From: a virus
IMG/VR virus record: IMGVR_UViG_3300047409_000726
Location: 16,265 to 80,264 of that record
Reading direction: 5' to 3' (one strand)
DNA: 64,000 nt
Numbering within the stretch: the first letter of the stretch is position 1; every line of letters begins with the position of its first letter. A program made the position numbers and the translations under genes. Shown here in pieces: positions 7,982-29,181 of this stretch. A model generated the notes under the pieces. That model saw only the letters and a list, made by a program, of their open reading frames with translations. It searched no databases and was not told the DNA's origin.

Positions 7982-10339
7982 GTGTTTTGTCGCTCGTTTG
8001 GAATACCCACCACGCGATTTAAATTGAAAATGCCCGACTTTAAAGAAGCAGAACCGTCGCACGTCTCTCCGCCCGTCGTCGTGTCGGCCATCGACCAGTT
8101 ACGGTCTTATCAGAAGCGCGATTACCGTGACGTGCTTGCGCGTTGTGAGGCGGTGCGTCGTGTCTTGTACGTTGCGTTCATGGGTTCCGGTAAGACAGTG
8201 CTCGCGGCGGCGTTGATTCGCACGTGGGTTGCTCGTGGCGAACACATTCTCATCTTGACGCACACGCGAGAGATTCTTCGACAGACGCACGACAAGTTGT
8301 TGAGCGCCGGCATTCCGGAAGAACAGATCGGGTGGATCTGGCGAGATCACGTCCGAACGAATTCGAAGGCGTTGATTCAGCTCGCGAGCCTCGACACTCT
8401 CGTGCGACGAGATTTTCCGAAAGGGATCACACGCATCGTCATCGACGAGGCCCATCACGCAACCGCGCAAAAGTGGCGCGGCGTGCTCGATGCTTACCCG
8501 GAAGCTCGTGTGCTCGGGCTCACAGGAACGCCGGTGCGTTTGGACGGGCAACCGCTTGGCGCCGTGTTCGAAGAGATGATCGAAAGCGAGCCGGTTGAAA
8601 GTTTGATCGAACAAGGTTGGATCGCACGTCCTTCGTATTGGACGCCGATGTGGAATGTCGAACTACCGCGCCGTTCCGGACAAGACTTCGGTGATCTTGT
8701 TGCTGCGGAGATGATACCGCATGCGAGAGTGCTCGAGAGCATGGTCGCGGAGTATTCGAAGCACGCCGCCGGGTTGCCGGCACTTGGCTTCGCCGCCACT
8801 CGCGAAAAGGCCGAGCAGTACGCAGCACACTTCACTGCGTCCGGCATTCCGGCTGATACCCTCTTCGGTTCGGACACGGATCTTAAACGACAAGGGACGT
8901 TGGCGCGTCTCCGTAAAAGAGCGCTTCGTGTGCTCTGGACATGCAACGTGTTAGGCGAAGGTTGGGATTACCCTGGACTTCGTTGCGTGATGCTCGCGCG
9001 CCCGACGTTGTCGATCGCGCGGTACCTTCAACAAGTTGCGCGATGCATGCGTCCTGGGGATCCGCCTGTGGTGCTCGACTTGTGGGGGGCATGGAATGTT
9101 TTCAGCCCGCCTTGGTCCGATTTCGGATGGAGCTTAGAGGCAAAAGCGCGCAGAAGATTGTATAAAGGCGAGCGTAGTACCGACGGCGAGGTGACGTGGC
9201 TACCTCCTGTTGAGGTCGAAGGGCAACTTGTGCGTGCGGATACGTTGGTGCAGACACCGTGTTCGGTGTGTGGTGCGCCAGCAACTCGTGCGAGCGCGGC
9301 AAATGCGGCGATTGGAAAAAATAAACCGTACTGTGCGGCGCACGCTAGAGGTTTGAATTACGGTCTTCCGCCGCTCCCGTGTGCGATTTGTGGTGAGCCG
9401 GCAACTAAAATGAGTTCACAGAATGCGCGAGCTAAGGGCGGCGCACGGAAGCCTTACTGCGAGAAACACAAAGGCGGTCTTCTTACGAAAATTACGCGGC
9501 TTCCGTGTGCGGTCTGTGGTGCGCCCGCAACTCTTAACAGCACAAAGATGTCTCTCAACAGAGGCGACAAGCCGTACTGCGTGCAGCACAAAGGAGGGCC
9601 TTCCGCAAAACTTCCACTGCTCCCGTGCACGATCTGTGGCGCGCCTGCGATTAAGAGTAGTTCACAGAATGCGCGGCTGCGCGGGCAAAAGCCATATTGC
9701 GAGAAACACAAAGGCGGCCCCTCCGCAAAACTCCCGCCGCTCCCGTGTGGGATCTGTGGGAAACCGACATCGCGCATCGCTTCGTTGAGCGCTCGGTCTC
9801 GTGGTGGAAAGGCGTATTGTAAAGAGCACCGTTACGGCGGCCGCAAAACTTCCCAAAACTTCCCGTTACTTCCGTGTGCGATCTGCGGGAAGCCGGCTAC
9901 TAAGATGAGTTCGGAAACTGCGCGACTTCAAGGGCACAGACCGTATTGTAGCGACCACAAGGCAGGCTCACATCCGTTACTTACTTGTGCTATTTGTGGG
10001 AAACCAGCTAGTAAAGGCAGCTCTAACAGCGCACGATACAGAGGGGGCGGTGCGAAAGCGTATTGTAAAGAGCACAGGAAAGGGCCCGTAGCGCCTAAGC
10101 CGTTACTTCCTTGCGCGATCTGCGGAGAGCCAGCGACCAAAAGCAGTTCGTTGCAAGCAGGCTACGAAGGGCGCAAGTCGTATTGTGAGAAACACAAAGG
10201 AGGAGGCCACAAACCCCCGTTACTTCCTTGCGCGATCTGTGGGGCGGTGACGAACAGCCGGAATTCGACAGCCGCGCGTTACAGAGGCGGCAAAGCATAT
10301 TGCGTGAAGCACAAGTACGGACGGAACGCGGATGCCTGA
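7982..10339 (+). CDS. SF2 (DEAH) helicase with nine C-terminal CxxC...YCxxH repeats; start may be at 8030
   Basis: GSGKT, IDEAHH, GLTGTP, GWDYP, QQVARCMRP. Confidence 0.85.
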   Translation: MFCRSFGIPTTRFKLKMPDFKEAEPSHVSPPVVVSAIDQLRSYQKRDYRDVLARCEAVRRVLYVAFMGSGKTVLAAALIRTWVARGEHILILTHTREILRQTHDKLLSAGIPEEQIGWIWRDHVRTNSKALIQLASLDTLVRRDFPKGITRIVIDEAHHATAQKWRGVLDAYPEARVLGLTGTPVRLDGQPLGAVFEEMIESEPVESLIEQGWIARPSYWTPMWNVELPRRSGQDFGDLVAAEMIPHARVLESMVAEYSKHAAGLPALGFAATREKAEQYAAHFTASGIPADTLFGSDTDLKRQGTLARLRKRALRVLWTCNVLGEGWDYPGLRCVMLARPTLSIARYLQQVARCMRPGDPPVVLDLWGAWNVFSPPWSDFGWSLEAKARRRLYKGERSTDGEVTWLPPVEVEGQLVRADTLVQTPCSVCGAPATRASAANAAIGKNKPYCAAHARGLNYGLPPLPCAICGEPATKMSSQNARAKGGARKPYCEKHKGGLLTKITRLPCAVCGAPATLNSTKMSLNRGDKPYCVQHKGGPSAKLPLLPCTICGAPAIKSSSQNARLRGQKPYCEKHKGGPSAKLPPLPCGICGKPTSRIASLSARSRGGKAYCKEHRYGGRKTSQNFPLLPCAICGKPATKMSSETARLQGHRPYCSDHKAGSHPLLTCAICGKPASKGSSNSARYRGGGAKAYCKEHRKGPVAPKPLLPCAICGEPATKSSSLQAGYEGRKSYCEKHKGGGHKPPLLPCAICGAVTNSRNSTAARYRGGKAYCVKHKYGRNADA
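9257..10320 (+). repeat. Nine tandem ~40-aa zinc-finger coding repeats
   Basis: PCxxCGxPAT...(K/R)(P/A/S)YCxxH repeated 9 times. Confidence 0.9.
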
Positions 10340-12113
10340 TCCCATCGACCTCTCCAACATCTTCGCTGCCGTTGCCGAAGCAACCAACGGCGCGCGGCGA
10401 GGTACGGCTCTCGGTAAGATTCGAGAAGCTGAAGGCGTAAGACACACGCCCGAGCTCGATAGGATCATCATGATCCCACGGCGTGTGCCCCTCACGCCCG
10501 ACGAGGAAGCCGAACAGATCGATCTGCTCACGAATCATCTCCGCACGCCGGGCGGGACGATGCGGCTCCGCCCGGTGCAGTCCCAAGCTCTCTACGAGAT
10601 GCACGACTACGGTGGCCTCTTCGGGCCCATCCGAGTCTCCGGCGGCAAGACGCTCATCTCCCTCCTCGCGCCGCTCGTGCTCGAGGCGCAGCGGCCGATG
10701 CTCATCGTCCCCGCTGCCTTGATCGAAAAGACACGCACCGAAGCCAGCAAGCTTGCTCAGCACTGGAAGCTCCCGCCGTTCCTTCACATCGTGAGCTACC
10801 AAGCGCTTGGCCGTGTCTCTGGTGCGGAGACGCTCGAGAAGGCAAACCCTGACCTCATCATCTGCGACGAGGCGCACAAGCTCAAGAACAAGCGCGCTGC
10901 CGTCACGAAGCGTGTCGCCAGGTATATGCACGACCACCCCGAGACGCGCATGGTCATATTGACCGGCACGATCTCGAAGCGTTCGCTTCATGACTTCTCG
11001 CACCTTTTGCTCTGGTCTTTGAAGCTCCGAACACCACTTCCGCGGCACTGGACCGAGCTCGAGGCGTGGGCGCTTGCGCTCGACGAGCGACCGAATTCAG
11101 TTGTGCCGCCGCTCTACCCGGGGGCGATTTTGAAGCTTGCGACCGAGGAAGACACTGGTGGCGCGACAGAGCGGGCGCGCAAAGCAGTGCGACGTCGGAT
11201 CAATGGCACGCCCGGTGTCGTGACGGCTTCCGGTCCGGGTTGTGACGTGAGTCTTCGGGTGCAAGGGCACATCGTCGAGACGTTGGAAGTGACCGAGGAA
11301 GCGTTTGACCGACTTCGTTCGAAATGGGAAACGCCCGATGGTTGGCCGCTCTCTGACGGGTTTGCGATTTGGCGACACGCACGCGAGCTCGCTTTAGGGT
11401 TTTATTATCGATGGGAAGTTCGACCGCCCGACGAATGGCTCGAGGCGCGGAAAGCCTGGTCGGCGTTTTGTCGGAAAGTTCTTGGAAGTAATCAACGCCG
11501 GCTCGATTCCGAGATGCAGGTTGCGCTCGCGTGCAAGGATCATCCTGAATGGTACGGTGACCAAGAGTACAAGGCGTGGGTCGCGATTCGTGACACGTTC
11601 AAACCGAAGACCGTTGCGGTGCCGTTCGACGACTCGGTTCTGGAGTACTGCCAAGAGTGGTCCAAGCACGGCGGACTCATCTGGTGCGAGCACATTGATT
11701 TTGCGAACCGGCTCTCGTCCATGACGGGCATTCCGTACTTCGCTGGTGAAGGTCTCGATGCGCACGGAAATTCGATCGAGACCTACGACGGTACGACGGC
11801 GATTCTTTCGATCGAGGCGAATCGAGAGGGTCGGAACCTTCAACGGTTTTCGAGAAATCTCGTGAGTTCGGTACCGCAGCAGGGCGACCGAATGCAGCAG
11901 CTCCTCGCGCGTACGCATCGTGACGGGCAAGAAGCCGATGAAGTGATCTGCGACATCGTAGTCTCGTGCGCCGAGCACGTTGAGGCGATGCACATCATGC
12001 AGAGCGACGCGCGCTACCAAGAGGACATCACCGGAGATCATCAGAAACTTTTGCTCGCGGACATCGTCGTGCCGAACACGATGCACTTGAAAGGAGCGGT
12101 TTGGAACAGATGA
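10332..12113 (+). CDS. SNF2-like SF2 helicase
   Basis: LRPVQ, SGGKT, CDEAHKLKN, LTGT, EGRNLQ, QLLARTHR. Confidence 0.8.
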   Translation: MPDPIDLSNIFAAVAEATNGARRGTALGKIREAEGVRHTPELDRIIMIPRRVPLTPDEEAEQIDLLTNHLRTPGGTMRLRPVQSQALYEMHDYGGLFGPIRVSGGKTLISLLAPLVLEAQRPMLIVPAALIEKTRTEASKLAQHWKLPPFLHIVSYQALGRVSGAETLEKANPDLIICDEAHKLKNKRAAVTKRVARYMHDHPETRMVILTGTISKRSLHDFSHLLLWSLKLRTPLPRHWTELEAWALALDERPNSVVPPLYPGAILKLATEEDTGGATERARKAVRRRINGTPGVVTASGPGCDVSLRVQGHIVETLEVTEEAFDRLRSKWETPDGWPLSDGFAIWRHARELALGFYYRWEVRPPDEWLEARKAWSAFCRKVLGSNQRRLDSEMQVALACKDHPEWYGDQEYKAWVAIRDTFKPKTVAVPFDDSVLEYCQEWSKHGGLIWCEHIDFANRLSSMTGIPYFAGEGLDAHGNSIETYDGTTAILSIEANREGRNLQRFSRNLVSSVPQQGDRMQQLLARTHRDGQEADEVICDIVVSCAEHVEAMHIMQSDARYQEDITGDHQKLLLADIVVPNTMHLKGAVWNR

Positions 12114-12125
12114 AGGAAAACTGAT

Positions 12126-12191
12126 CGTGAGCTAGGCACGAACGGGGCGACACCTCTCAGGAGGCATCTGACGTTTCGTGCCTAGCTCGCG
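12126..12191 (+). promoter_or_regulatory. 17-bp stem-loop in the leader of the SSB-like gene
   Basis: cgtgagctaggcacgaa pairs with ttcgtgcctagctcgcg (one G-U). Confidence 0.6.
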
Positions 12192-12227
12192 GGAATTTTT
12201 CCCGTCTACGAAAAGGAATATCAAAAC

Positions 12228-12989
12228 ATGCCCCCCATCGATTGGTCCCAAATTGGAGCTGCGCCGATTTTCGAACGTGGAAACTACTTCAACCCAGGAA
12301 GGTACAAGCTCCGCTTGCTTCGGTGCCTGAGCAAGCAGACGCAAAAAGTTGGAGTGGCGTTCATCGCCGAATTCGAAGTCTTGGAGAGCGACAACCCCGC
12401 GCACCAGATCGGGAGCAAGGGGACGTACTTCGTCAAGATGGCTCAACAGCAGCAAGCGTTTTCCAACATCCTCGAGATGATGGCGGCGCTTCTCGGATTC
12501 GATATCACGAACAAAGAACACGTTACGCAAATCGATCAGCAACTGAGGCCCCAGCTTGCGGGGCTCATGACGGCGCTCGAGACGCAGGGCACGGCCGTGC
12601 TCGGCGGACGCGAGACGATTTCCGTCGAGTGTCGGATCACGCTGACCAAACAGCAGAGGGAGTTCACGCTTCACGTGTGGACGCCGTGGACACCTCCGCC
12701 AGGTTGGCAGCCTGTTCCGACGCCGGCACAGGCGCAGATGCCTCAGAGGTCAGCGGCGCAACCCGTCGCTCAGCCTCAGGGGTATCCGGCTGCGTACGCC
12801 CCACCGGCGTTTGCGCAGCCCGCGCTGGCGCAACAGGCGCCTCAGCAACCGCCGGGGTTCGCTCCGGCACCGATGCAGGCGCCTCAGCAACAGGCGTTTG
12901 CTCCGGCACCTCAGCAGATGCAAGCCCCCTACGGACAACCCGCCATGCCCCCGGCTGGCGCGTTGCCTCCGTGGATGACTCCTCGGTGA
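12228..12989 (+). CDS. Probable single-stranded DNA-binding protein with Pro/Gln tail
   Basis: Beta-rich N-terminus, low-complexity tail, position between helicase and polymerase, good RBS. Confidence 0.5.
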   Translation: MPPIDWSQIGAAPIFERGNYFNPGRYKLRLLRCLSKQTQKVGVAFIAEFEVLESDNPAHQIGSKGTYFVKMAQQQQAFSNILEMMAALLGFDITNKEHVTQIDQQLRPQLAGLMTALETQGTAVLGGRETISVECRITLTKQQREFTLHVWTPWTPPPGWQPVPTPAQAQMPQRSAAQPVAQPQGYPAAYAPPAFAQPALAQQAPQQPPGFAPAPMQAPQQQAFAPAPQQMQAPYGQPAMPPAGALPPWMTPR

Positions 12990-13000
12990 AGTGAAAGAGA

Positions 13001-13038
13001 GCCCCGCTCCGGTGCCCGGCCGGAGCGGGGCGAGTTTT
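13001..13038 (+). terminator. Terminator-like hairpin
   Basis: gccccgctccgg / ccggagcggggc 12-bp stem followed by gagtttt. Confidence 0.6.
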
Positions 13039-13040
13039 CG

Positions 13041-14894
13041 ATGCAGTCCTTCGACACTGAAACCTTCCTCATCACCGACGGCAACCTTGCCCCGGATCTC
13101 GTGTGCATTTCTTTCGCCGGGCCCGACTACGTTGCCGAGCTTTACCACGCGATCGACGGCTCTCCGACGTTCCGCGCGATGGCCGACTGCGCCTTGGCCA
13201 AGAACACTCCGGTGATTGGTGCGAACACCGCCTACGACATGGGCGTCATGCTTGCGCACGATCCGTCGCTCGCTGATCGGATCTGGACGCTCTACGACCA
13301 AGGGCTCGTGCGCGACGTGATCATGCGTCAGAAGATGATCGATATCGCGAAAGGTTGCTACGGCGGATTCAGGCGCGGTGAAGACGGCAAGGCGTACAAG
13401 ATCGGGTACAGCCTGGCCGATCTCACGAAGCGGCACTTGGGTCATGAGCTCGACAAGGGTGCGGACACCTGGCGTCTCAGGTACTCGGAGCTCTACGAGG
13501 TGCCTTTGCCTGAATGGCCAGCGGAGGCGCAAGGGTATGCCAAGGACGACGCGGTCGCGACGGTCGCCGTCTATCAGGCACAGGAGGCCGACGCGGCGCT
13601 GCTCCTCGACGAGCCGGCACGGTGCCGCACGGCGTGGATGCTCCACCTCATGTCCTGCTACGGGATCAAAACGGATCCGGAAGCCGTCGCCGCGTTCGTT
13701 CGGGCCACAGAGAAGAGCGTCGAAGAACTCAAAGCCGTTCTAGTAAATTGGGGCTTAGTACGTCCAAGCGGCACGCGAGACACGAAAGCTGCGAAGGCTC
13801 TTATGGTCAGCGTGTGCGCGGCCAAGGGTTTGGAGATCGTAAAAACCGACGGCGGTGACGTCGCCCTCGACGACGCGACGTGCAAGAAGACAGGTGATCC
13901 TGTTCTCACCGCTTACGCAAACTTCTCGAGCCTTGCGAAAGTCGTTTCGACTGACATCCCGATCCTTCTCAAAGGCGTCGACACGCCGATTCAGACTCGT
14001 TTCGAACCGCTTCTAGAAACCGGTCGCACGTCGTCGAGCGCGCCCAATATTCAGAACATCAAGCGCCTGGTCGGGATGCGCGAGTGCTTTCGGCCTCGTC
14101 CTGGGTACGTCTTCGTCGACGCGGACTACGCGATGCTTGAGCTATGCACGTGGGCGCAGACGTGTCTCTGGGCCTTGGGGTACTCGAGGCTCGCGGAAGT
14201 TCTGAACGCCGGTGACGATCCGCACTTGGCCTTCGCGGCTCAGATCCTTGGCATCACCTACGATGAAGCGAAGGCGCGACGTAAGGGCGGTGACAAGGAA
14301 GTCGAGCAACGACGTCTCGTGGCGAAGGTCGGAAACTTCGGTTTCCCTGGCGGCCTCGGCAAAGACAGTTTCGTCGAATACGCCGCGTCTTCGTACAAGG
14401 TGAGCATCACCGTTGAGAAAGCCGCGGAGCTGAAGAGTTTCTGGCTAGCACAATGGCCAGAAGCCCGAGCGTACTTCGATTGGATTGCGAAGAAAGAACA
14501 GGACAGCGGAATTTCGATGCAGCGCTTCGTCGTTGGATCGTGGCGCTCCGGTATGCGGTACACGGTCGCGTGCAACGACCCGTTTCAGAGTCTCGGTGCG
14601 ACGGCCGCGACGTGGGCCGGTTACGATCTCGCGCGGGCCTGCTACTACGAGCGAGACCATATTCTCTTCGGCTCGCGGCCCGTGAACTTCATCCATGACC
14701 AATACCTCGTCGAAGTACTCGACGACTACTACGCGCACGATCGCGCGATGGCCGTGGCGAGCATCATGGTCGCGGCGGCGAAGCGAGCGATCCCTGACGT
14801 GACGCCGAAGGTCGAGCCTCTCTTGTGTAGGTACTGGAGCAAGGACGCGAAAGAAGTCTTCAAGGACGGGAGGCTCGTGCCGTGGCCCTCATAG
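13041..14894 (+). CDS. polA: Family A DNA polymerase with 3'-5' exonuclease domain
   Basis: FDTET, YAKDDA, TGRTSS, NIQN, DADYAMLE, AKVGNFG, IHDQ. Confidence 0.92.
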   Translation: MQSFDTETFLITDGNLAPDLVCISFAGPDYVAELYHAIDGSPTFRAMADCALAKNTPVIGANTAYDMGVMLAHDPSLADRIWTLYDQGLVRDVIMRQKMIDIAKGCYGGFRRGEDGKAYKIGYSLADLTKRHLGHELDKGADTWRLRYSELYEVPLPEWPAEAQGYAKDDAVATVAVYQAQEADAALLLDEPARCRTAWMLHLMSCYGIKTDPEAVAAFVRATEKSVEELKAVLVNWGLVRPSGTRDTKAAKALMVSVCAAKGLEIVKTDGGDVALDDATCKKTGDPVLTAYANFSSLAKVVSTDIPILLKGVDTPIQTRFEPLLETGRTSSSAPNIQNIKRLVGMRECFRPRPGYVFVDADYAMLELCTWAQTCLWALGYSRLAEVLNAGDDPHLAFAAQILGITYDEAKARRKGGDKEVEQRRLVAKVGNFGFPGGLGKDSFVEYAASSYKVSITVEKAAELKSFWLAQWPEARAYFDWIAKKEQDSGISMQRFVVGSWRSGMRYTVACNDPFQSLGATAATWAGYDLARACYYERDHILFGSRPVNFIHDQYLVEVLDDYYAHDRAMAVASIMVAAAKRAIPDVTPKVEPLLCRYWSKDAKEVFKDGRLVPWPS

Positions 14895-15358
14895 CGATCG
14901 ATCCGGGCACGCGCGAACAGAACGCACACAAGTCTGCGGAGAAGACAGGCGTGGCAGTGTTTTTAGGAGGCGCACTAATTTTCGCGACAGCTTGCACAGT
15001 TGAAGAAGCTCTTCTCTCCATAAAAGACGCGATGATTGGTGCGGATGACGATTGCATCATTGAAGTTCCTCAAGTTTATCCAACACAACACCAGAAGAGC
15101 GATCAGAATGATCTGATTGCCCTAGCTGTTACGGTGGGCCGATATGTTGAGCGCGCGACGTCGTGTGGCTTCCGGATTAAGCTTGTCAAGCCTCGCGAGT
15201 GGAAGGGGCAGCTTCCTAAGGACGTGTGCTGGGAACGCGCTAAGGAAACTCTGACGCCGACGGAGCTCGCCACGATCCCCGAGCTTCCAAAATCTCACGC
15301 GCACAACATGTACGACGCAATCGGTCTCGGAACCTGGTTCCAGAAAAGGTGGAGATGA
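14882..15358 (+). CDS. RuvC-like Holliday junction resolvase
   Basis: IAIDPG, IIEVP, PREWKG, HNMYDAIGLG. Confidence 0.75.
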   Translation: MALIAIDPGTREQNAHKSAEKTGVAVFLGGALIFATACTVEEALLSIKDAMIGADDDCIIEVPQVYPTQHQKSDQNDLIALAVTVGRYVERATSCGFRIKLVKPREWKGQLPKDVCWERAKETLTPTELATIPELPKSHAHNMYDAIGLGTWFQKRWR

Positions 15359-15594
15359 AGGTGGCCAAGAAAACGATGACGCTCAAAGCGTGGTTCGAAA
15401 GCACGCTCCCGAAAGGCATGACAAAGACCGCCTACGCCCAGATTTTGGCAGATCGAGCGGGCGGCAAGATCGGAATGTCGACGATCTTGAACACCCTCAA
15501 GGGCCACAGGCTCACGAGCTACGCCAAAGGCAAGGCGATCAGCGATCTCACCGGTGGCAAGGTTCCGCTCACAGAAATCGTGGAAACATTATGA
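15355..15594 (+). CDS. HTH (Cro/XRE-like) protein
   Basis: Small helical protein ending ISDLTGGKV. Confidence 0.5.
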   Translation: MKVAKKTMTLKAWFESTLPKGMTKTAYAQILADRAGGKIGMSTILNTLKGHRLTSYAKGKAISDLTGGKVPLTEIVETL

Positions 15595-16190
15595 CCGCTA
15601 TTGAGCCTGTCGCAGTGGCAGACAGCGTTTGGCTTCGGCGCCCAAACGATCTTGAAAGCAAAGAAGCGCTCGCGGAGCTTTCGGCATCGCTTCAGGATCT
15701 TCCGTGCACGTCTCTCACGTACCCGGGAATTTGCGAAGCGCTCATCGAGGTCAAGGCGCGTGTGAAGAACTTGATCGCGCAGCGCGAGACGGTGCTCGGG
15801 CCGCTTCGAGAAGCAGAGCGCGCGGCGCGGGAGTGGTTCCGAGCTCCGCTCGAGACGTATCAGATGATCGAGAGCGTCTTGAAAGAACGTGTCGCCGGGT
15901 ATCAAGAAACGCTTCGTCAAGAGAAGCACGCGGCGATTGTCGCGGCCGGTCAGGCTCCGACACCGACGGCCATGGCGCAGCTCACGGCGCTCGCGACCCC
16001 TCCGACGCCGACGGCGATCACATTTCGGAAGACGTGGGAGGTCGAGATCACGGATCCGAACCTTGTGCCTCGGGAGTATCTACTCATCGACACGGCGGCA
16101 CTTCGGAAGGTTTGCGTGGCGACCAAAGGCCAGATCCAGGTGCCCGGTGTACGTTTCTTTCAGAAAGACGGCGTGGCGGTAGGCACGTGA
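15591..16190 (+). CDS. Coiled-coil phage protein (Gp157/Gam-like C-terminus)
   Basis: WEVEITDPNLVPREYL...IQVPGVRF. Confidence 0.6.
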   Translation: MTAIEPVAVADSVWLRRPNDLESKEALAELSASLQDLPCTSLTYPGICEALIEVKARVKNLIAQRETVLGPLREAERAAREWFRAPLETYQMIESVLKERVAGYQETLRQEKHAAIVAAGQAPTPTAMAQLTALATPPTPTAITFRKTWEVEITDPNLVPREYLLIDTAALRKVCVATKGQIQVPGVRFFQKDGVAVGT

Positions 16191-23856: not shown

Positions 23857-24084
23857 TCATGCCTCAGGTGCTCCGGGGATCTTCCGGTTCGTGATTATTT
23901 TGAGCGCGATCGAGAGCAGCGGGCCCTCGATGTGTTTCGGTACCAAGATGCCGAGTTCGCGCTGTGCCCGATCAAGCGCAGCGCCGAATGTTAGGTTGTT
24001 GTCGGCCGTGAGAATGTCGATGACCCTCTCGAGCACCGGTGCGCAGTGTCGCGCGTCGCGTAGCGCTTCTTCGACGGCTGTCAC
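23857..24084 (-). CDS. Hypothetical protein, last gene of the RAMP operon
   Basis: GTG start overlaps the upstream TAG. Confidence 0.5.
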   Translation of the reverse strand: MTAVEEALRDARHCAPVLERVIDILTADNNLTFGAALDRAQRELGILVPKHIEGPLLSIALKIITNRKIPGAPEA

Positions 24085-24578
24085 TAGTCGTCCCCGTTGA
24101 ACAACACGACCTGCGCAGCCTGCGCGCAGGCGTCCTGAAGCGATTCGCCTTGAAAGAACCCCTTCACTTCGTAGCCGTCGTTGGAGAGGCTTGCCTCGAA
24201 CATCTTGATCTCTCGCTTGCCTTCGGCGTTGACGCCCATCTCGATGGATCGGACGCCGGCCTCGCGTGCACGGAGCCACCGGTCGAGCGCTTCGAAGATC
24301 CGCACAGCTCCCTCGCCCTCGGCTTGGCGTATCTCGGCTTCTCGTGACTCGACCTGCGCGCGTACGGGCACGATGGTGACCGTTTTCATACGGAAGATGA
24401 GCTTACACGCTAGGTCGAGGTAGGCGCTCTCAGGGTTCGCTCGAACGTATAGCTCGTCGATCTCGTTGATGGTGTCGCGGAGCGCTTCTGCGAGCTCGTG
24501 AATCACGTCCTCGGACGTCATGGGAGCGGGGCGAGGGGGCGAGGAGTGTTTCGAGCGGGTAAGCGGGGCGTCGTTCAT
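24084..24578 (-). CDS. Hypothetical protein downstream of the pentamer tracts
   Basis: 164-aa ORF with RBS AAAGGA. Confidence 0.65.
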   Translation of the reverse strand: MNDAPLTRSKHSSPPRPAPMTSEDVIHELAEALRDTINEIDELYVRANPESAYLDLACKLIFRMKTVTIVPVRAQVESREAEIRQAEGEGAVRIFEALDRWLRAREAGVRSIEMGVNAEGKREIKMFEASLSNDGYEVKGFFQGESLQDACAQAAQVVLFNGDD

Positions 24579-24604
24579 CTTGGGTTCCTTTGTGTGTAGA
24601 AACG

Positions 24605-24786
24605 GTCCTTTGGTTTGCTCGGCTGTGCGCAGCGATGCGTAGCCCGGCGGCGCGCCGATTCGGGTGGCTTTGCTGAGCGCTGCTTTGTTGAGCGGTGCGT
24701 GGCGCTGCGGTGCCGAGACTTGCCGAGCATTGCTTTACAACGCGACGTTGCGCCATGCTGAGCACCGTACCGCTCAGCGGAGTTTG
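24605..24786 (-). ncRNA. Putative guide RNA, tract A (34 phased 5-nt units plus handle)
   Basis: G at every fifth + strand base 24617-24782 (33/34), GC in 26/34; handle gtcctttggtttgc. Confidence 0.75.
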
Positions 24787-24830
24787 TTGGGTTTGAAAAA
24801 AAGCTGTTCGGCACGGGGTTCGTTGAAAGT

Positions 24831-24947
24831 GTCCTTTGGTTTGCTTGGCAGTGCGTCACGACGCGGGGCAGGGTCGCGCGACGATCCGCTTCCCGGTGCA
24901 CTGATCTGCTTGACCGTGCTGGGCACAGCGCCGCACTGCGATGAGGG
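24831..24947 (-). ncRNA. Putative guide RNA, tract B (21 units plus handle)
   Basis: GC in 14/21 phased positions from 24843; same handle as A. Confidence 0.72.
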
Positions 24948-24987
24948 TTTTGAAAAAGTTGTTTGTGCGCGGGTTGTGCGAAAAGTG

Positions 24988-25074
24988 TGACTTTGATTTG
25001 CTGGGCTGAGCACGACTGAGCTTCGCGTCGCGTCGCTGGGCCGGGTTTCGCGAGGCGCTGCGTCGCTGGGTTTC
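24988..25074 (-). ncRNA. Putative guide RNA, tract C (15 units plus handle)
   Basis: GC in 12/15 phased positions from 25000; handle tgactttgatttgc. Confidence 0.72.
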
Positions 25075-25078
25075 TTTT

Positions 25079-25723
25079 CTAGGCCACCTTCCGTTTCATC
25101 GCAGCCGTCCCGTCGACGCAGTCCCATGCGACGACGTGGAAGAGCCCAAACGGCCCGCGCTTCTCAGGGCGGAAGGCGCCGATACCTAGTTGTTCTCCGG
25201 CCTCGGTGAGGAGCTGTCTCACGAACGCCGGATCCATGAGGTTCTCGTTGATGCGGATCGTGCACTTCAACGTCCAGCGTTCGATGCGTGGACGGTGAGC
25301 GAGCAGTGCGCCTTTCGTGCTTGGGTTGACGACCCGGCGACTGTCCACCTCGTAGGTCGTGATGCGCGTTTTCCGGTCTTCATTGTAGAGCGGTGCAAGC
25401 TCGTCGAGAACGAGCACCGCGGCCGGCACGCGATACTTCATCGACTTGCGGGTGCCCTTCTCCTTGTGGTTGCCGCCGGCTTCGACGATCGCGCGTTGTA
25501 CACCGGTGCCAGGGAACACGAGTGGGGAGTCGAGCTTCCCGTTCTCGCGGTAGCAGCTCTTCTCGGCGATCTCTCGCGGAGTGAGTTGCTTGACGGCTGT
25601 GATAGATGGCCGAGTGCCTGGGCCACTGCCGCCGGGTACGTTTTCGGCTGCTTCTGTTCCAAACGCCGCCATAAGTAGCGGCATCGTTCCTTCGATCCAA
25701 GTTTCTGTGTATTGAAAAGACAC
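25079..25723 (-). CDS. Stand-alone RAMP/Cas7-like RNA-binding protein
   Basis: N-terminal strand IEGTMPLL; FPGTGVQRAI resembling RAMP IPGSSLKGAL; C-terminal Gly-rich loop LGIGAFRPEKRGPFG; RBS AAAGGAG 7 nt before GTG. Confidence 0.75.
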   Translation of the reverse strand: MSFQYTETWIEGTMPLLMAAFGTEAAENVPGGSGPGTRPSITAVKQLTPREIAEKSCYRENGKLDSPLVFPGTGVQRAIVEAGGNHKEKGTRKSMKYRVPAAVLVLDELAPLYNEDRKTRITTYEVDSRRVVNPSTKGALLAHRPRIERWTLKCTIRINENLMDPAFVRQLLTEAGEQLGIGAFRPEKRGPFGLFHVVAWDCVDGTAAMKRKVA

Positions 25724-25747
25724 TGAGATTCTCCTTTGGTTGAAAAT

Positions 25748-25889
25748 GAGCTTTGGTTTGCGCGGCTGAGCGTGGCGATGCGGTGCGCTGCGAGGCGTAG
25801 ATCTGCTGAGGGCCGCTCTGTTGTGCGGGGGCGCGCTAGGCGGGGCGGCGATATGCTTTGCCGGGGCCTGCCCTGCGGCGCGGTGAATT
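25748..25889 (-). ncRNA. Putative guide RNA, tract D (26 units plus handle); variable positions spell a rhomboid motif
   Basis: G at 26/26 phased positions 25760-25885, GC in 19; handle gagctttggtttgc. Confidence 0.78.
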
Positions 25890-26434
25890 TAGGTGAACGA
25901 CCTTCCTCTCTCGCCGATGGCGTTCGCGAAGAGTGCAGCAACGACGCCGACGAACAGGCCGCCGATGTGGGCACCGACACTGACGTCGCCACCGTTGCCG
26001 GTTAGTGCCTGCCAAGTGCTGACAGCGCAAAAGGCGAAAGCGAATCCGATGAATCGGCGGTCGACCGCTACGGAGTACGTGACCAGGCCGCAGACAGCCC
26101 CGGAGGCGCCTACCATCGGGATTGAAGAGCCTGAAGCTACGATAATGTGGAGAGCGGCTCCGGCGACCGCTGCGAGGGCGTAGAGGCAGAGGAACCGAGC
26201 GCCCCCGATGACCCTCTCGACCAGGCTGCCGAAAACGGCCAAAAAGGCCATGTTACAGCCCAGGTGAACGAGGGTCCTAGGGTCGTGCAGGAAGGAGTAG
26301 GTGAGGAGCGAGCCCAGGCCCGGATGGGCCGGAACTAGGCCGAATTTCTCGCAGACCGGCATCCCGCCACTCGAGAGCTCGAGGGCGTAAACGGCCGCGT
26401 TCAGCGTCACGAGAAGGAGGGTCACGAGGGGCAT
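25889..26434 (-). CDS. Rhomboid intramembrane serine protease
   Basis: TYSFLH, HLGCNM, catalytic GASG, AHIGG; multiple TM segments. Confidence 0.92.
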   Translation of the reverse strand: MPLVTLLLVTLNAAVYALELSSGGMPVCEKFGLVPAHPGLGSLLTYSFLHDPRTLVHLGCNMAFLAVFGSLVERVIGGARFLCLYALAAVAGAALHIIVASGSSIPMVGASGAVCGLVTYSVAVDRRFIGFAFAFCAVSTWQALTGNGGDVSVGAHIGGLFVGVVAALFANAIGERGRSFT

Positions 26435-28500: not shown

Positions 28501-28558
28501 CGCTCACCGCTTCATCCCCGGCGCGGCGCTCACCGCTTCATCCCCGGCGCGGCGCTCA
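28501..28558 (+). repeat. 26-bp exact tandem duplication
   Basis: cgctcaccgcttcatccccggcgcgg x2 plus cgctca. Confidence 0.9.
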
Positions 28559-28641
28559 ATCATTGCTGGGAAGAGTTTCGGCGTCTCGGTGCGAAGGTCG
28601 TGCCTGTGCAAGCTAATACGCCGCTGTGATAGGGTGCGACC

Positions 28642-29181
28642 ATGAACACTGTCGTTTCTGTGATCGTCGTGCTCAAGGTCTTTCTCATGCAAGCCCCGTT
28701 CGATTGGGATCGCTCGCTCTCGGTCGAGGAGCGCACCGAATTCACGCGGCCCTATGCCGAAGCCGTTGCGCAGGCGGCGCACACGTACTGGGAAGCGGCG
28801 CTTCTCATGGCGCAGGCCATCTCCGAGACGCACATGGCGAGCTACGTGATCGAGGGTCGATGCATGGAGGGCCCGGTCGGGTATCGGTGCGATCCGAAGC
28901 ACGGGGTGCCTCGAGCTCGAGGGCCGTGGCAGCTTCATCTCGAAGCGTGCCGTAGCGCGTACGAGTTTCCCGAGACGTCGAACGAGTCGGTGATGGCGGA
29001 AGCCGAGTGCGCGATGCAGGCGATGAGATACTTCGCGCACGTCGGTAAGGATCACGCTCAGACGCCGAATCACGCGGCGTTCTGCGGCATGGGTCCGAAG
29101 CCTTGGGACTGGCCTGGCGCGAATAAACGGGTGAACCTCGCAAAAACCATCTACCGACAGCTAACGAGCGTAGCGCAATGA
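28642..29181 (+). CDS. Secreted, possibly lysozyme-like protein
   Basis: Hydrophobic N-terminus; AISET...ARGPWQL. Confidence 0.4.
   Translation: MNTVVSVIVVLKVFLMQAPFDWDRSLSVEERTEFTRPYAEAVAQAAHTYWEAALLMAQAISETHMASYVIEGRCMEGPVGYRCDPKHGVPRARGPWQLHLEACRSAYEFPETSNESVMAEAECAMQAMRYFAHVGKDHAQTPNHAAFCGMGPKPWDWPGANKRVNLAKTIYRQLTSVAQ

What the first reader, a model, noticed from the sequence alone, without database searches (positions are those of the whole stretch)
24605..25889. Candidate RNA-guided system: lone RAMP/Cas7-like gene with four phased pentamer-repeat RNAs and no CRISPR array
Seen: four non-coding tracts (34, 21, 15 and 26 units) keep an exact 5-nt phase with no indels. Each unit is a near-constant trinucleotide (mostly GCG/GCT on +, CGC/AGC on the gene strand) plus a variable dinucleotide. 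Every tract ends in GCAAA(C/T)CAAAG on the gene strand. One tract lies upstream and three downstream of a 214-aa gene with RAMP hallmarks. Established: Cas7-type RAMPs oligomerise along guide RNAs with a fixed nucleotide period. Inference: one subunit binds each pentamer through the constant 3 nt and exposes the 2 variable nt for target pairing. From memory this resembles reported viral RAMP plus GGY/NN repeat (VIPR) systems; I cannot verify that here, and the constant motif in this locus is (A/C)GC rather than GGY.
Basis: partly seen in the sequence, partly recalled or inferred. Interest (0 to 1): 0.97.

Follow-up and report, generated by a model that had tools for sequence, protein, structure and literature searches.

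The report
Phage VIPR system with GC-type guides
This soil phage carries a real copy of the VIPR RNA-guided DNA-silencing system first published in 2026: a small Cas7-like protein and four guide RNAs made of five-letter repeats, here with an unusual repeat letter code and one guide that spells a rival phage's rhomboid protease gene. It is a tidy new member of a known family, not a new kind of system.

Summary
Four non-coding tracts around the 214-aa gene keep an exact 5-nt phase. On the gene strand each unit reads n-G-C-N-N, and every tract ends in GCAAA(C/T)CAAAG. Nothing else in the 80-kb phage genome looks like this.

The interpretation also holds. The gene product has a Cas7/Csm3 fold, and its family profile matches the solved SUSP1 Vipr protein (E 9e-9). 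More than 130 of about 150 homologous loci carry flanking pentamer tracts on the gene strand. This is therefore a VIPR system (bioRxiv 10.64898/2026.04.26.720920), with the same layout as SUSP1: one vrRNA upstream and three downstream.

What differs is the scaffold, nGC instead of GGY. The two residues that read the first G in SUSP1 (H17, D177) are both Ala here. Across 107 distinct loci, Asp at the G-loop site goes with G at repeat position 1, though that rests on only 4-6 independent changes.

Under the published 1-nt-skip rule, and under no other skip rule, the 14 units at the 5' end of the upstream guide match a related vipr-less phage's rhomboid gene base for base. The phage's own rhomboid matches only 8 of those 14.

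No targets were found for the other three guides, and expression is untested. Non-canonical VIPR repeats are already in print, and this scan has noted VIPR loci in about 400 other genomes.

The parts
25079..25723 (-). vipr gene (214 aa, P0001): single-RRM RAMP with G-loop GIGAFRPEKRGPFG
   Evidence: ORF and translation. AlphaFold model pLDDT 83, top PDB folds Csm3/Cas7. Family profile matches PDB 36pp 'SUSP1 Vipr protein' at E 9.3e-9 over residues 4-192. phrog_4652 E 2e-10, no Pfam or PADLOC hit.
25742..25882 (-). vrRNA A (upstream guide): 24 nGC/NN units (25763-25882) plus conserved tail GCAAACCAAAG-CTCATTTTC. It starts 6 nt after the rhomboid stop codon, and the vipr ribosome-binding site follows the tail. 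RNA ends are not mapped.
   Evidence: The 14 units at the 5' end match the rhomboid gene of phage G001 at 28 of 28 bases under the 1-nt-skip rule.
24980..25067 (-). vrRNA B: 13 units (25003-25067) plus tail GCAAATCAAAG-TCACACTTTTC. It starts 11 nt after the vipr stop codon.
   Evidence: No target found.
24825..24940 (-). vrRNA C: 19 units (24846-24940) plus tail GCAAACCAAAG-GACACTTTC
   Evidence: No target found.
24599..24779 (-). vrRNA D: 32 units (24620-24779) plus tail GCAAACCAAAG-GACCGTTTC. It is the only guide shared with the sister phage L002, which has one extra 5-nt unit in phase.
   Evidence: The only external hit (L168) looks like chance.
24084..24521 (-). 145-aa ORF directly after the guide array: possible accessory (vap-like) gene, function unknown
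   Evidence: 90% identical and syntenic in L002, weak match in L076. Only 6 homologs. No Pfam, PHROG or PADLOC hit. Models too poor to use, pLDDT 52 and 0.44.
25889..26434 (-). The phage's own rhomboid protease gene, directly upstream of vrRNA A. It is a homolog (43% aa) of the gene that guide A spells. The own site at 26078-26119 matches only 8 of 14 units.
   Evidence: Pfam PF01694 E 4e-19. Comparisons.

Best explanation
The locus is a VIPR (Viral Interference Programmable Repeat) system in a complete 80-kb soil phage genome. It comprises a vipr gene and four vrRNA genes on the same strand, one upstream and three downstream.

By homology with the solved SUSP1 system, Vipr protomers should line up one per pentamer along each vrRNA. 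They would hold the constant bases and present the two variable bases. The filament would bind double-stranded DNA whose sequence reads NN-x-NN-x (one base skipped per unit) and block transcription of a rival element.

This clade uses a reduced scaffold, n-G-C instead of G-G-Y. The likely reason is that the two residues which hydrogen-bond the first G in SUSP1 (H17 and D177) are both Ala here (A19, A183). The residues that hold G2 and Y3 are kept (R144, F184, R185).

The upstream guide is aimed at the catalytic-serine segment of rhomboid protease genes carried by sibling phages. The phage's own rhomboid allele is different enough to escape.

Shown: fold, homology, repeat anatomy, association of repeats with the gene family, guide turnover between sister phages, and the gapped match. 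Inferred: transcription and processing of the tracts, RNP formation, DNA binding, silencing, and the role of the Ala substitutions.
For: - Fold: AlphaFold model pLDDT 83. Csm3/Cas7 chains are the top PDB matches at E 3e-7, probability 1.
- Homology: the profile of 25 homologs matches PDB 36pp 'SUSP1 Vipr protein', E 9.3e-9, residues 4-192 against 2-185. The family has 6,034 representatives at E <= 1e-3.
- Association: of about 150 homologous loci from viral, metagenome and genome collections, all but 13 have period-5 tracts beside the gene on the gene strand.
- Strand: relatives show GG followed by C/T on the gene strand. The window's tracts have their conserved tail on that strand.
- Scaffold versus protein: among 107 distinct proteins, 84 have Asp at the G-loop site and G at position 1, 22 have Ala/Ser and no G1, and 1 is an exception. 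The tree shows 6 changes of state, and the 4 well-supported independent pairs go the same way in nearly every sampling (3.8 of 4 on average, never the opposite way). Contact residues come from the cryo-EM paper, mapped through the ungapped alignment block.
- Guide behaviour: Vipr is 99.5% identical in L002 and 91% in L076, yet the NN series are unrelated apart from guide D. In a soil run a 12-kb contig keeps the flanking genes and guide D, but other sequence replaces guides B+C and guide A. The indels seen are 5 nt, so the phase is kept.
- Target: a 10-unit seed from guide A found one place in IMG/VR. There 14 consecutive units (28 of 28 bases) match in frame, with the skipped base at the codon wobble position, on PLVGASGAIFGLLA of a rhomboid gene. 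Within that 109-kb phage only the 1-nt-skip rule gives this run; other rules and shuffled guides give at most 7. Background for 347 other tracts against 1.06 Mb is 5-8 units.
- The target phage is a relative (27.6 kb of tblastx cover) with no vipr.
- Second guide: the upstream guide of sister phage L002 decodes to ALRPRLLGFA, a rhomboid segment five codons downstream. It aligns in frame at the homologous site of the three non-self rhomboids and L002's own, at 6-8 of 15 units.
- Self-avoidance: no guide matches its own genome above shuffled controls. The own rhomboid site matches 8 of 14 units.
Against: - No RNA data exist. Only soil DNA runs hold the locus, so transcription, processing and RNA ends are inferred.
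- No sigma-70-like promoter, no convincing terminator and no Rfam family were found. The tails fold no better than shuffles, unlike the SUSP1 pseudoknot tail.
- The rhomboid match covers only 14 of guide A's 24 units (34 of 48 bases, 71%). That is below the 80% NN criterion of the VIPR paper. The segment encodes a conserved catalytic motif, so part of the match could reflect protein conservation.
- Guides B, C and D have no target. One hit for D in an AT-rich phage has its skip base off the wobble position and looks like chance.
- The residue-to-motif link rests on 4-6 independent transitions (sign test p 0.125) and has one exception, L139.
- No recognisable vap gene.
Confidence: 0.88

Rival explanations
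1. The guides are transcribed from the opposite (+) strand, so the scaffold is G-C-K/NN and the RNAs are antisense to the gene.
For: GC is its own reverse complement, so the window alone cannot fix the strand. No promoter was found on either strand.
Against: In over 100 homologous loci the repeats read GG-Y on the gene strand. The conserved end motif with its T-run lies 3' of each tract only on the gene strand. The retained G2 and Y3 contact residues fit n-G-C, not G-C-K.
Confidence: 0.04
2. The locus is a decaying or inactive VIPR remnant. Loss of the G1-reading residues disabled RNA recognition, and the tracts are drifting relics.
For: In SUSP1 the D177A mutation abolished silencing. About a quarter of the units lack GC. 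Three of the four guides have no detectable target.
Against: The ORF is intact and 83-93% identical in several metagenome relatives. 22 distinct Ala/Ser-type proteins keep long in-phase nGY tracts. Sister phages exchange whole guides while keeping the phase and the tails. One guide still spells 14 perfect units of a rival gene.
Confidence: 0.06
3. The tracts act as DNA, for example as phased binding sites or a recombination hotspot, and not as RNA guides. The RAMP gene is merely adjacent.
For: No expression data. The tracts are replaced cassette-like between strains.
Against: The same gene-plus-tract pairing recurs across hundreds of unrelated contigs. For the homologous SUSP1 system the RNAs were sequenced and co-purified, and the complex was solved. 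The decoded guide matches a coding sequence under the published RNA rule only.
Confidence: 0.02

Closest known systems
Type II VIPR of Escherichia phage SUSP1 (Vipr, vap1, four vrRNAs; bioRxiv 10.64898/2026.04.26.720920 and .720927; PDB 36pp)
   Same: Phage-borne. Single small RAMP protein detectably homologous to SUSP1 Vipr. One vrRNA upstream and three downstream on the gene strand. Pentamer units of three scaffold and two variable bases. A constant 3' tail after each tract. No CRISPR array. A gapped match under the 1-nt-skip rule with the skipped base at the codon wobble position. The target lies in a competing related phage, and there is no self-match.
   Different: - Scaffold is n-G-C, not G-G-Y.
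- The G1 contacts H17 and D177 are both Ala.
- Guides are longer: 13-32 units against 9-16.
- The tail is a short unstructured motif (GCAAAYCAAAG plus a T-run), with no predicted pseudoknot.
- There is no recognisable vap1; the neighbouring 145-aa ORF has no assignable fold.
- Host unknown, soil, 60% G+C.
- Protein identity to SUSP1 is very low; only a profile detects it.
Non-canonical VIPR repeat classes already in print: NNNGG, YNNNG and NNNNG (10.64898/2026.04.26.720920, methods); WGT/NN, TGH/NN, GAC/NN and CAC/NN clusters (10.64898/2026.10.21.760802)
   Same: The window's unit, written C-N-N-n-G, is a YNNNG repeat. It is degenerate at one scaffold position and lies next to a Vipr-like fold.
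   Different: In the text held here those papers list motifs without linking them to protein residues. Here the relaxed first position goes with loss of the Asp/His pair. I could not see their figures or tables, so this exact clade may already be in their sets.
Cas7 family RAMPs of class 1 CRISPR effectors (Csm3, Cmr4, type VII Cas7)
   Same: RRM core, glycine-rich loop and thumb. Best structural matches are Csm3 chains. They oligomerise along a guide with a fixed period.
   Different: No CRISPR array, no other cas genes, a 5-nt rather than 6-nt period, a non-contiguous guide, a single-RRM minimal protein, and a phage-encoded locus.
Solo or orphan vrRNAs and vipr-targeting guides in SUSP1-family phages and satellites (10.64898/2026.10.15.759431)
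   Same: Guides are used in conflicts between related mobile elements, and self-match scores are lower than scores against rivals.
   Different: Here the guides sit with their own vipr. No solo tracts occur elsewhere in the genome. The identified target is a rhomboid protease gene, not vipr or a satellite.

Membership tests
VIPR system | Vipr protein with RAMP fold (RRM core, G-loop, thumb) | tested here: met
   Model pLDDT 83. Foldseek top hits are Csm3/Cas7 at E 3e-7, probability 1.00. G-loop GIGAFRPEKRGPFG with invariant G180, G182, R185, P186, G190 and G193.
VIPR system | Sequence homology to an experimentally validated Vipr | tested here: met
   Profile A1 against PDB 36pp_D 'SUSP1 Vipr protein': E 9.3e-9, query 4-192 against chain 2-185.
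VIPR system | Tandem pentamer repeats (constant scaffold plus variable NN) flanking vipr on its strand | tested here: met
   88 units in four tracts in exact phase. G2 is 82%, C3 is 94%, N4 and N5 are at background. Relatives show the same on the gene strand.
VIPR system | Canonical GGY scaffold | tested here: not met
   Position 1 is G in only 12 of 88 units. The discovery paper itself admits 'a related consensus' including YNNNG, so this feature does not define the family, only its canonical types.
VIPR system | Invariable 3' tail after each repeat tract | tested here: met
   GCAAA(C/T)CAAAG followed by a short T-run after all four tracts. A structured or pseudoknot tail as in SUSP1 was not found.
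VIPR system | NN positions hypervariable between close relatives while the scaffold is kept | tested here: met
   L002 (Vipr 99.5%), L076 (91%), L079 and L080 carry unrelated NN series on the same nGC scaffold. A soil contig replaces whole guides.
VIPR system | Minimal locus without CRISPR array or other cas genes, usually on a virus | tested here: met
   Complete 80,264-bp viral record with terminal repeats. Phage replication genes nearby. No arrays. No PADLOC hits for the neighbours.
VIPR system | Accessory vap gene beside vipr | tested here: inconclusive
   A 145-aa ORF after the array is conserved in L002, but it has no family, and both models are poor.
VIPR system | Guides match natural DNA targets under the 1-nt-skip rule and not the own genome | tested here: inconclusive
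   Guide A: 14 of 24 units perfect on a related phage's rhomboid gene, under skip 1 only. That is 71% of NN bases over the whole guide, below the paper's 80% criterion. Guides B-D have no target. No self-match.
VIPR system | vrRNAs expressed and bound by Vipr; DNA binding and silencing | not testable with these tools
   No RNA run holds the locus. This needs small-RNA sequencing, a pull-down and a reporter assay.
CRISPR-Cas class 1 effector | CRISPR repeat-spacer array and partner cas genes (Cas5, Cas6, large subunit, and others) | tested here: not met
   No array in 64 kb. The neighbours are a rhomboid gene and unknown small ORFs.

The most novel reading that the evidence does not exclude
A whole sub-lineage of Vipr proteins has given up the pocket for the first scaffold base (His and Asp replaced by Ala or Ser) and works with a two-base scaffold (G-C). 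This would show that the protein-RNA code of VIPR can be re-tuned by one or two residues. In this phage group the system is used in a running conflict over a rhomboid protease gene. Each phage carries, right next to its own diverged rhomboid allele, a guide that spells rival alleles. That would make rhomboid a new class of VIPR target and suggest that it matters for these phages' reproduction.
Probability: 0.35. Interest if true: 0.55.

Novelty: new member of a known kind. Interest (0 to 1): 0.35.

Why it matters
The locus adds a well-documented soil-phage example to a family known so far mainly from E. coli and Pseudomonas systems, with three points that can be tested.

1. It gives a concrete residue-level hypothesis for how Vipr scaffold specificity changes: Asp/His present goes with G at position 1, and Ala/Ser goes with any base. 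That would help anyone who wants to engineer orthogonal VIPR guide scaffolds.
2. It shows that the 1-nt-skip rule, established for GGY guides, also fits a GC-type guide.
3. It points to phage rhomboid protease genes as an object of conflict between phages. The rhomboid gene next to the system diverges far faster than vipr between sister phages (72% against 99.5%, and 46% against 91%).

None of this changes the general picture given by the 2026 papers.

Tried and rejected
- Pfam and PADLOC gave nothing for Vipr. PHROGs gave only an unnamed family.
- The phage collection held no relative by tblastn or megablast.
- Self-targeting: no guide matches the own genome at nucleotide or decoded amino-acid level above shuffled controls.
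- Exact 10-unit seeds in IMG/VR found nothing for the 3' part of A, the 3' part of D, either half of C, or B.
- The middle of D hit one AT-rich 195-kb contig. Only 11 units matched, the rest of the guide matched at chance level, and the skip base was off the wobble position. I treat it as chance.
- Skip rules 0, 2 and 3 gave nothing in the target phage.
- Is the semi-variable position 1 read as a third guide base? Its complement equals the skipped target base in 4 of 14 units, which is chance level.
- Rfam, the sigma-70 promoter scan and the terminator scan found nothing useful. The tails fold no better than shuffles.
- Sequencing runs: no RNA holder is listed. Only soil and freshwater DNA metagenomes hold the locus, and the best one may be the source sample.
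- The accessory-gene candidate gave two poor models (pLDDT 0.44 and 52), so no fold search was run on it.
- The supplementary tables of the VIPR paper are not held. I therefore could not assign a VIPR type (I-VII) or check whether this clade is in their 667 loci.
Full report
**1. What is in the sequence**

The window is bases 16265-80264 of an 80,264-bp IMG/VR virus record with direct terminal repeats, rated complete. It has about 60% G+C and no tRNA genes. Its phage-type replication genes are two helicases, a PolA-type polymerase and an exonuclease, at 7982-16190.

On the minus strand the gene order is:
- a rhomboid protease gene (26434-25889; PF01694, E 4e-19);
- tract A;
- a 214-aa ORF (25723-25079);
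- tracts B, C and D;
- a 145-aa ORF (24521-24084).

Read in 5-mers on the gene strand, the tracts hold 24, 13, 19 and 32 units in exact phase. Over the 88 units:
- position 2 is G in 72;
- position 3 is C in 83;
- position 1 is only biased (A 29, C 37, G 12, T 10);
- positions 4 and 5 are at background.

Each tract ends in GCAAA(C/T)CAAAG followed by a short T-run.

In-phase GC reaches 12 of 15 units here. It reaches at most 7 elsewhere in the whole genome and 7-9 in shuffled genomes. There are no further tracts in the genome and no CRISPR array.

**2. The protein**

Pfam and PADLOC are silent, and PHROGs gives an unnamed family. A search found 31 homologs, almost all metagenomic. Their alignment shows a glycine-rich loop, GIGxFRPEKGGPFG.

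The AlphaFold model (pLDDT 83) is matched best by Csm3/Cas7 chains of type III and type VII CRISPR effectors, E about 3e-7, probability 1.00. The profile of the alignment matches exactly one solved protein, PDB 36pp 'SUSP1 Vipr protein', at E 9.3e-9 over almost the full length. A profile search of 1.84 billion representatives finds 6,034 relatives at E <= 1e-3, so this is a large family.

**3. VIPR is a published system**

Four preprints are held:
- the discovery paper (10.64898/2026.04.26.720920);
- the cryo-EM paper (.720927);
- a paper on competition and solo vrRNAs (10.64898/2026.10.15.759431);
- a language-model survey that recovers VIPR arrays and reports 21 clusters with non-canonical pentamers (10.64898/2026.10.21.760802).

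In SUSP1, four vrRNAs of about 100 nt lie around vipr, one upstream and three downstream. Each is a run of GGY/NN units followed by a constant tail. One Vipr protomer binds each unit. The NN bases pair with DNA that has one skipped base per unit, and binding silences transcription. The paper also lists alternative repeats: NNNGG, YNNNG and NNNNG. The window's unit, written C-N-N-n-G, is a YNNNG repeat.

**4. Do homologs carry the tracts?**

I fetched 74 viral, 80 metagenome and 5 genome loci. All but 13 of them, several of those being short contigs, have period-5 tracts next to the gene. In the great majority the tracts read GG then C/T on the gene strand.

It also fixes the transcribed strand, which the window alone cannot do because GC is its own reverse complement.

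**5. Why nGC instead of GGY**

The cryo-EM paper names the contacts:
- G1 is read by H17 and D177;
- G2 by R138 and W178;
- Y3 by a pocket that includes R179.

In the ungapped alignment blocks these map to A19, A183, R144, F184 and R185 of the window protein. The G2 and Y3 contacts are kept, and both G1 contacts are Ala. That fits the observed motif exactly.

Across all loci, 117 with Asp at the G-loop site have a median G1 frequency of 0.92 (minimum 0.51). Loci with Ala or Ser there have 0.00-0.34, with one exception (L139, 0.96). Some Glu/Ser-type loci have A at position 1 instead.

Counted as distinct proteins, that is 84 concordant Asp/G1, 22 concordant non-Asp/non-G1, and 1 discordant. 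On a tree the Asp state changes only 6 times. The 4 well-supported independent pairs go the same way in nearly every sampling (3.8 of 4 on average, never the opposite way), but the sign test cannot go below p 0.125 with so few pairs. I rate this a good structural hypothesis, not a demonstrated rule.

**6. Guide-like behaviour**

The sister phage L002 has a Vipr 99.5% identical in protein and 93% in DNA, but only three tracts. Its upstream tract and first downstream tract are unrelated to the window's. Its last tract is guide D with a few base changes and one extra 5-nt unit.

Relatives at 55-91% protein identity (L076, L079, L080 and L083 among them) have nGC tracts with unrelated NN series.

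Laying soil-metagenome contigs on the locus shows the same pattern in an independent study. A 12-kb contig keeps the 145-aa ORF, guide D (with 5 nt inserted), vipr and the rhomboid ends. It replaces guides B+C (295 nt by 149 nt) and guide A (222 nt by 172 nt). The scaffold and phase are kept while the content turns over, which is what guides do.

**7. Targets**

No guide matches the phage's own genome above shuffled controls, at DNA or decoded-peptide level.

Decoded as codon positions 1-2 on the complementary strand, guide A reads ...P-L-V-G-A-S-G-A-I-F-G-L-L-A.

A 10-unit seed (20 fixed bases) found one place in IMG/VR. There 14 consecutive units (28 of 28 bases) match in frame, with the skipped base at the wobble position, in a rhomboid gene of a 109-kb viral genome. 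Inside that genome only the 1-nt-skip rule gives this run. Other rules and shuffled guides give 4-7 units. The best runs of 347 other tracts against 1.06 Mb are 5-8 units.

The target phage is a relative of the window's phage. Its structural genes are 60-80% identical in protein, and 27.6 kb is covered by tblastx. It has no vipr.

The phage's own rhomboid (43% identical) matches 8 of the 14 units, or 21 of 28 bases.

A second, independent guide supports the reading. The upstream guide of L002 decodes to A-L-R-P-R-L-L-G-F-A, a rhomboid segment five codons downstream of the first site. It aligns in frame at the homologous position of the three non-self rhomboid genes and L002's own, at 6-8 of 15 units.

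The rhomboid gene is syntenic with the system in L002, L076 and L078. It diverges far faster than vipr: 72% against 99.5%, 46% against 91%, and 45% against 84%. Its middle part is marked 'same length, diverged' in two soil runs.

Four cautions apply:
- The ten 3'-proximal units of guide A do not match. Over the whole guide the match is 71% of NN bases, below the 80% criterion of the paper.
- The matched segment is a conserved catalytic motif, so protein conservation adds to the match.
- A later check on a similar 'guide spells a conserved motif' claim elsewhere in this scan found part of that claim did not hold (e1-5205340).
- Guides B, C and D have no target in what I could search. The single hit for D looks like chance.

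**8. Expression signals**

I found no sigma-70-type promoter, no convincing terminator, no Rfam family and no hammerhead ribozyme. The tails fold no better than shuffles.

Tract A starts 6 nt after the rhomboid stop codon, and tract B starts 11 nt after the vipr stop codon. I therefore infer one transcript from the rhomboid gene through the array, cut at the conserved linkers. This is inference only, because no RNA run holds the locus.

**9. Accessory gene**

The 145-aa ORF after the array is conserved in L002 and weakly in L076. It has six homologs, no family and no usable model. Whether it is a vap gene remains open. I could not assign the VIPR type (I-VII) because the paper's tables are not held.

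**10. Verdict**

The locus is a genuine VIPR system with the SUSP1-like layout and a YNNNG-type (nGC/NN) scaffold. The kind, its recognition rule and the existence of non-canonical scaffolds are all in print. This scan has already noted such loci about 600 times, in about 400 genomes.

This locus adds three things: a residue-level explanation of the scaffold change, evidence that the skip rule holds for this scaffold, and rhomboid genes as a likely object of conflict between sibling phages.

Noticed in passing
window 25977-26160 (inside the rhomboid gene 25889-26434, minus strand): Related phage contigs in two soil runs align to both ends of the rhomboid gene, but the middle 182 nt is 'same length, diverged'. 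That part holds the site homologous to guide A's target. Between sister phages the rhomboid is 45-72% identical while Vipr is 84-99.5% identical. This looks like allele replacement or fast divergence of a targeted gene.
   Followed up: partly
L148, L150, L152, L154 (metagenome loci): Vipr relatives with Ser at the G-loop site (Glu at the His site where the alignment covers it) have A at repeat position 1 in 78-100% of units (A-G-Y/NN). This probably corresponds to the WGT/NN class reported in 10.64898/2026.10.21.760802. It suggests a re-specified rather than merely relaxed first pocket.
   Followed up: no
L139 (metagenome locus, Vipr at 1214-1768): The one exception to the residue rule: Asn/Ala at the two G1-contact positions, yet 96% G at repeat position 1.
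   Followed up: no
L002:4990-5320 and soil run X2 (between window 24577 and 24605): Sister phages carry about 340 extra bases between guide D and the 145-aa ORF. The stretch reads as an open frame.
   Followed up: no
window 28501-28552: A perfect tandem duplication of a 26-nt unit (2.2 copies), at the start of a minus-strand ORF (28504-29073). Unexplained.
   Followed up: no
G001 = IMGVR_UViG_3300032893_000012 (L161-L167): The 109-kb relative that carries the matched rhomboid gene has no vipr homolog at all (E <= 10). It would be a defenceless target, or the loser, in this conflict.
   Followed up: partly
L168:2750-2778 (195-kb AT-rich viral contig): Ten-unit seed hit of guide D. It extends by one unit only, and the skipped base falls on codon position 1. 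Probably chance, but it is the only external hit for guide D, which the window shares with L002.
   Followed up: yes
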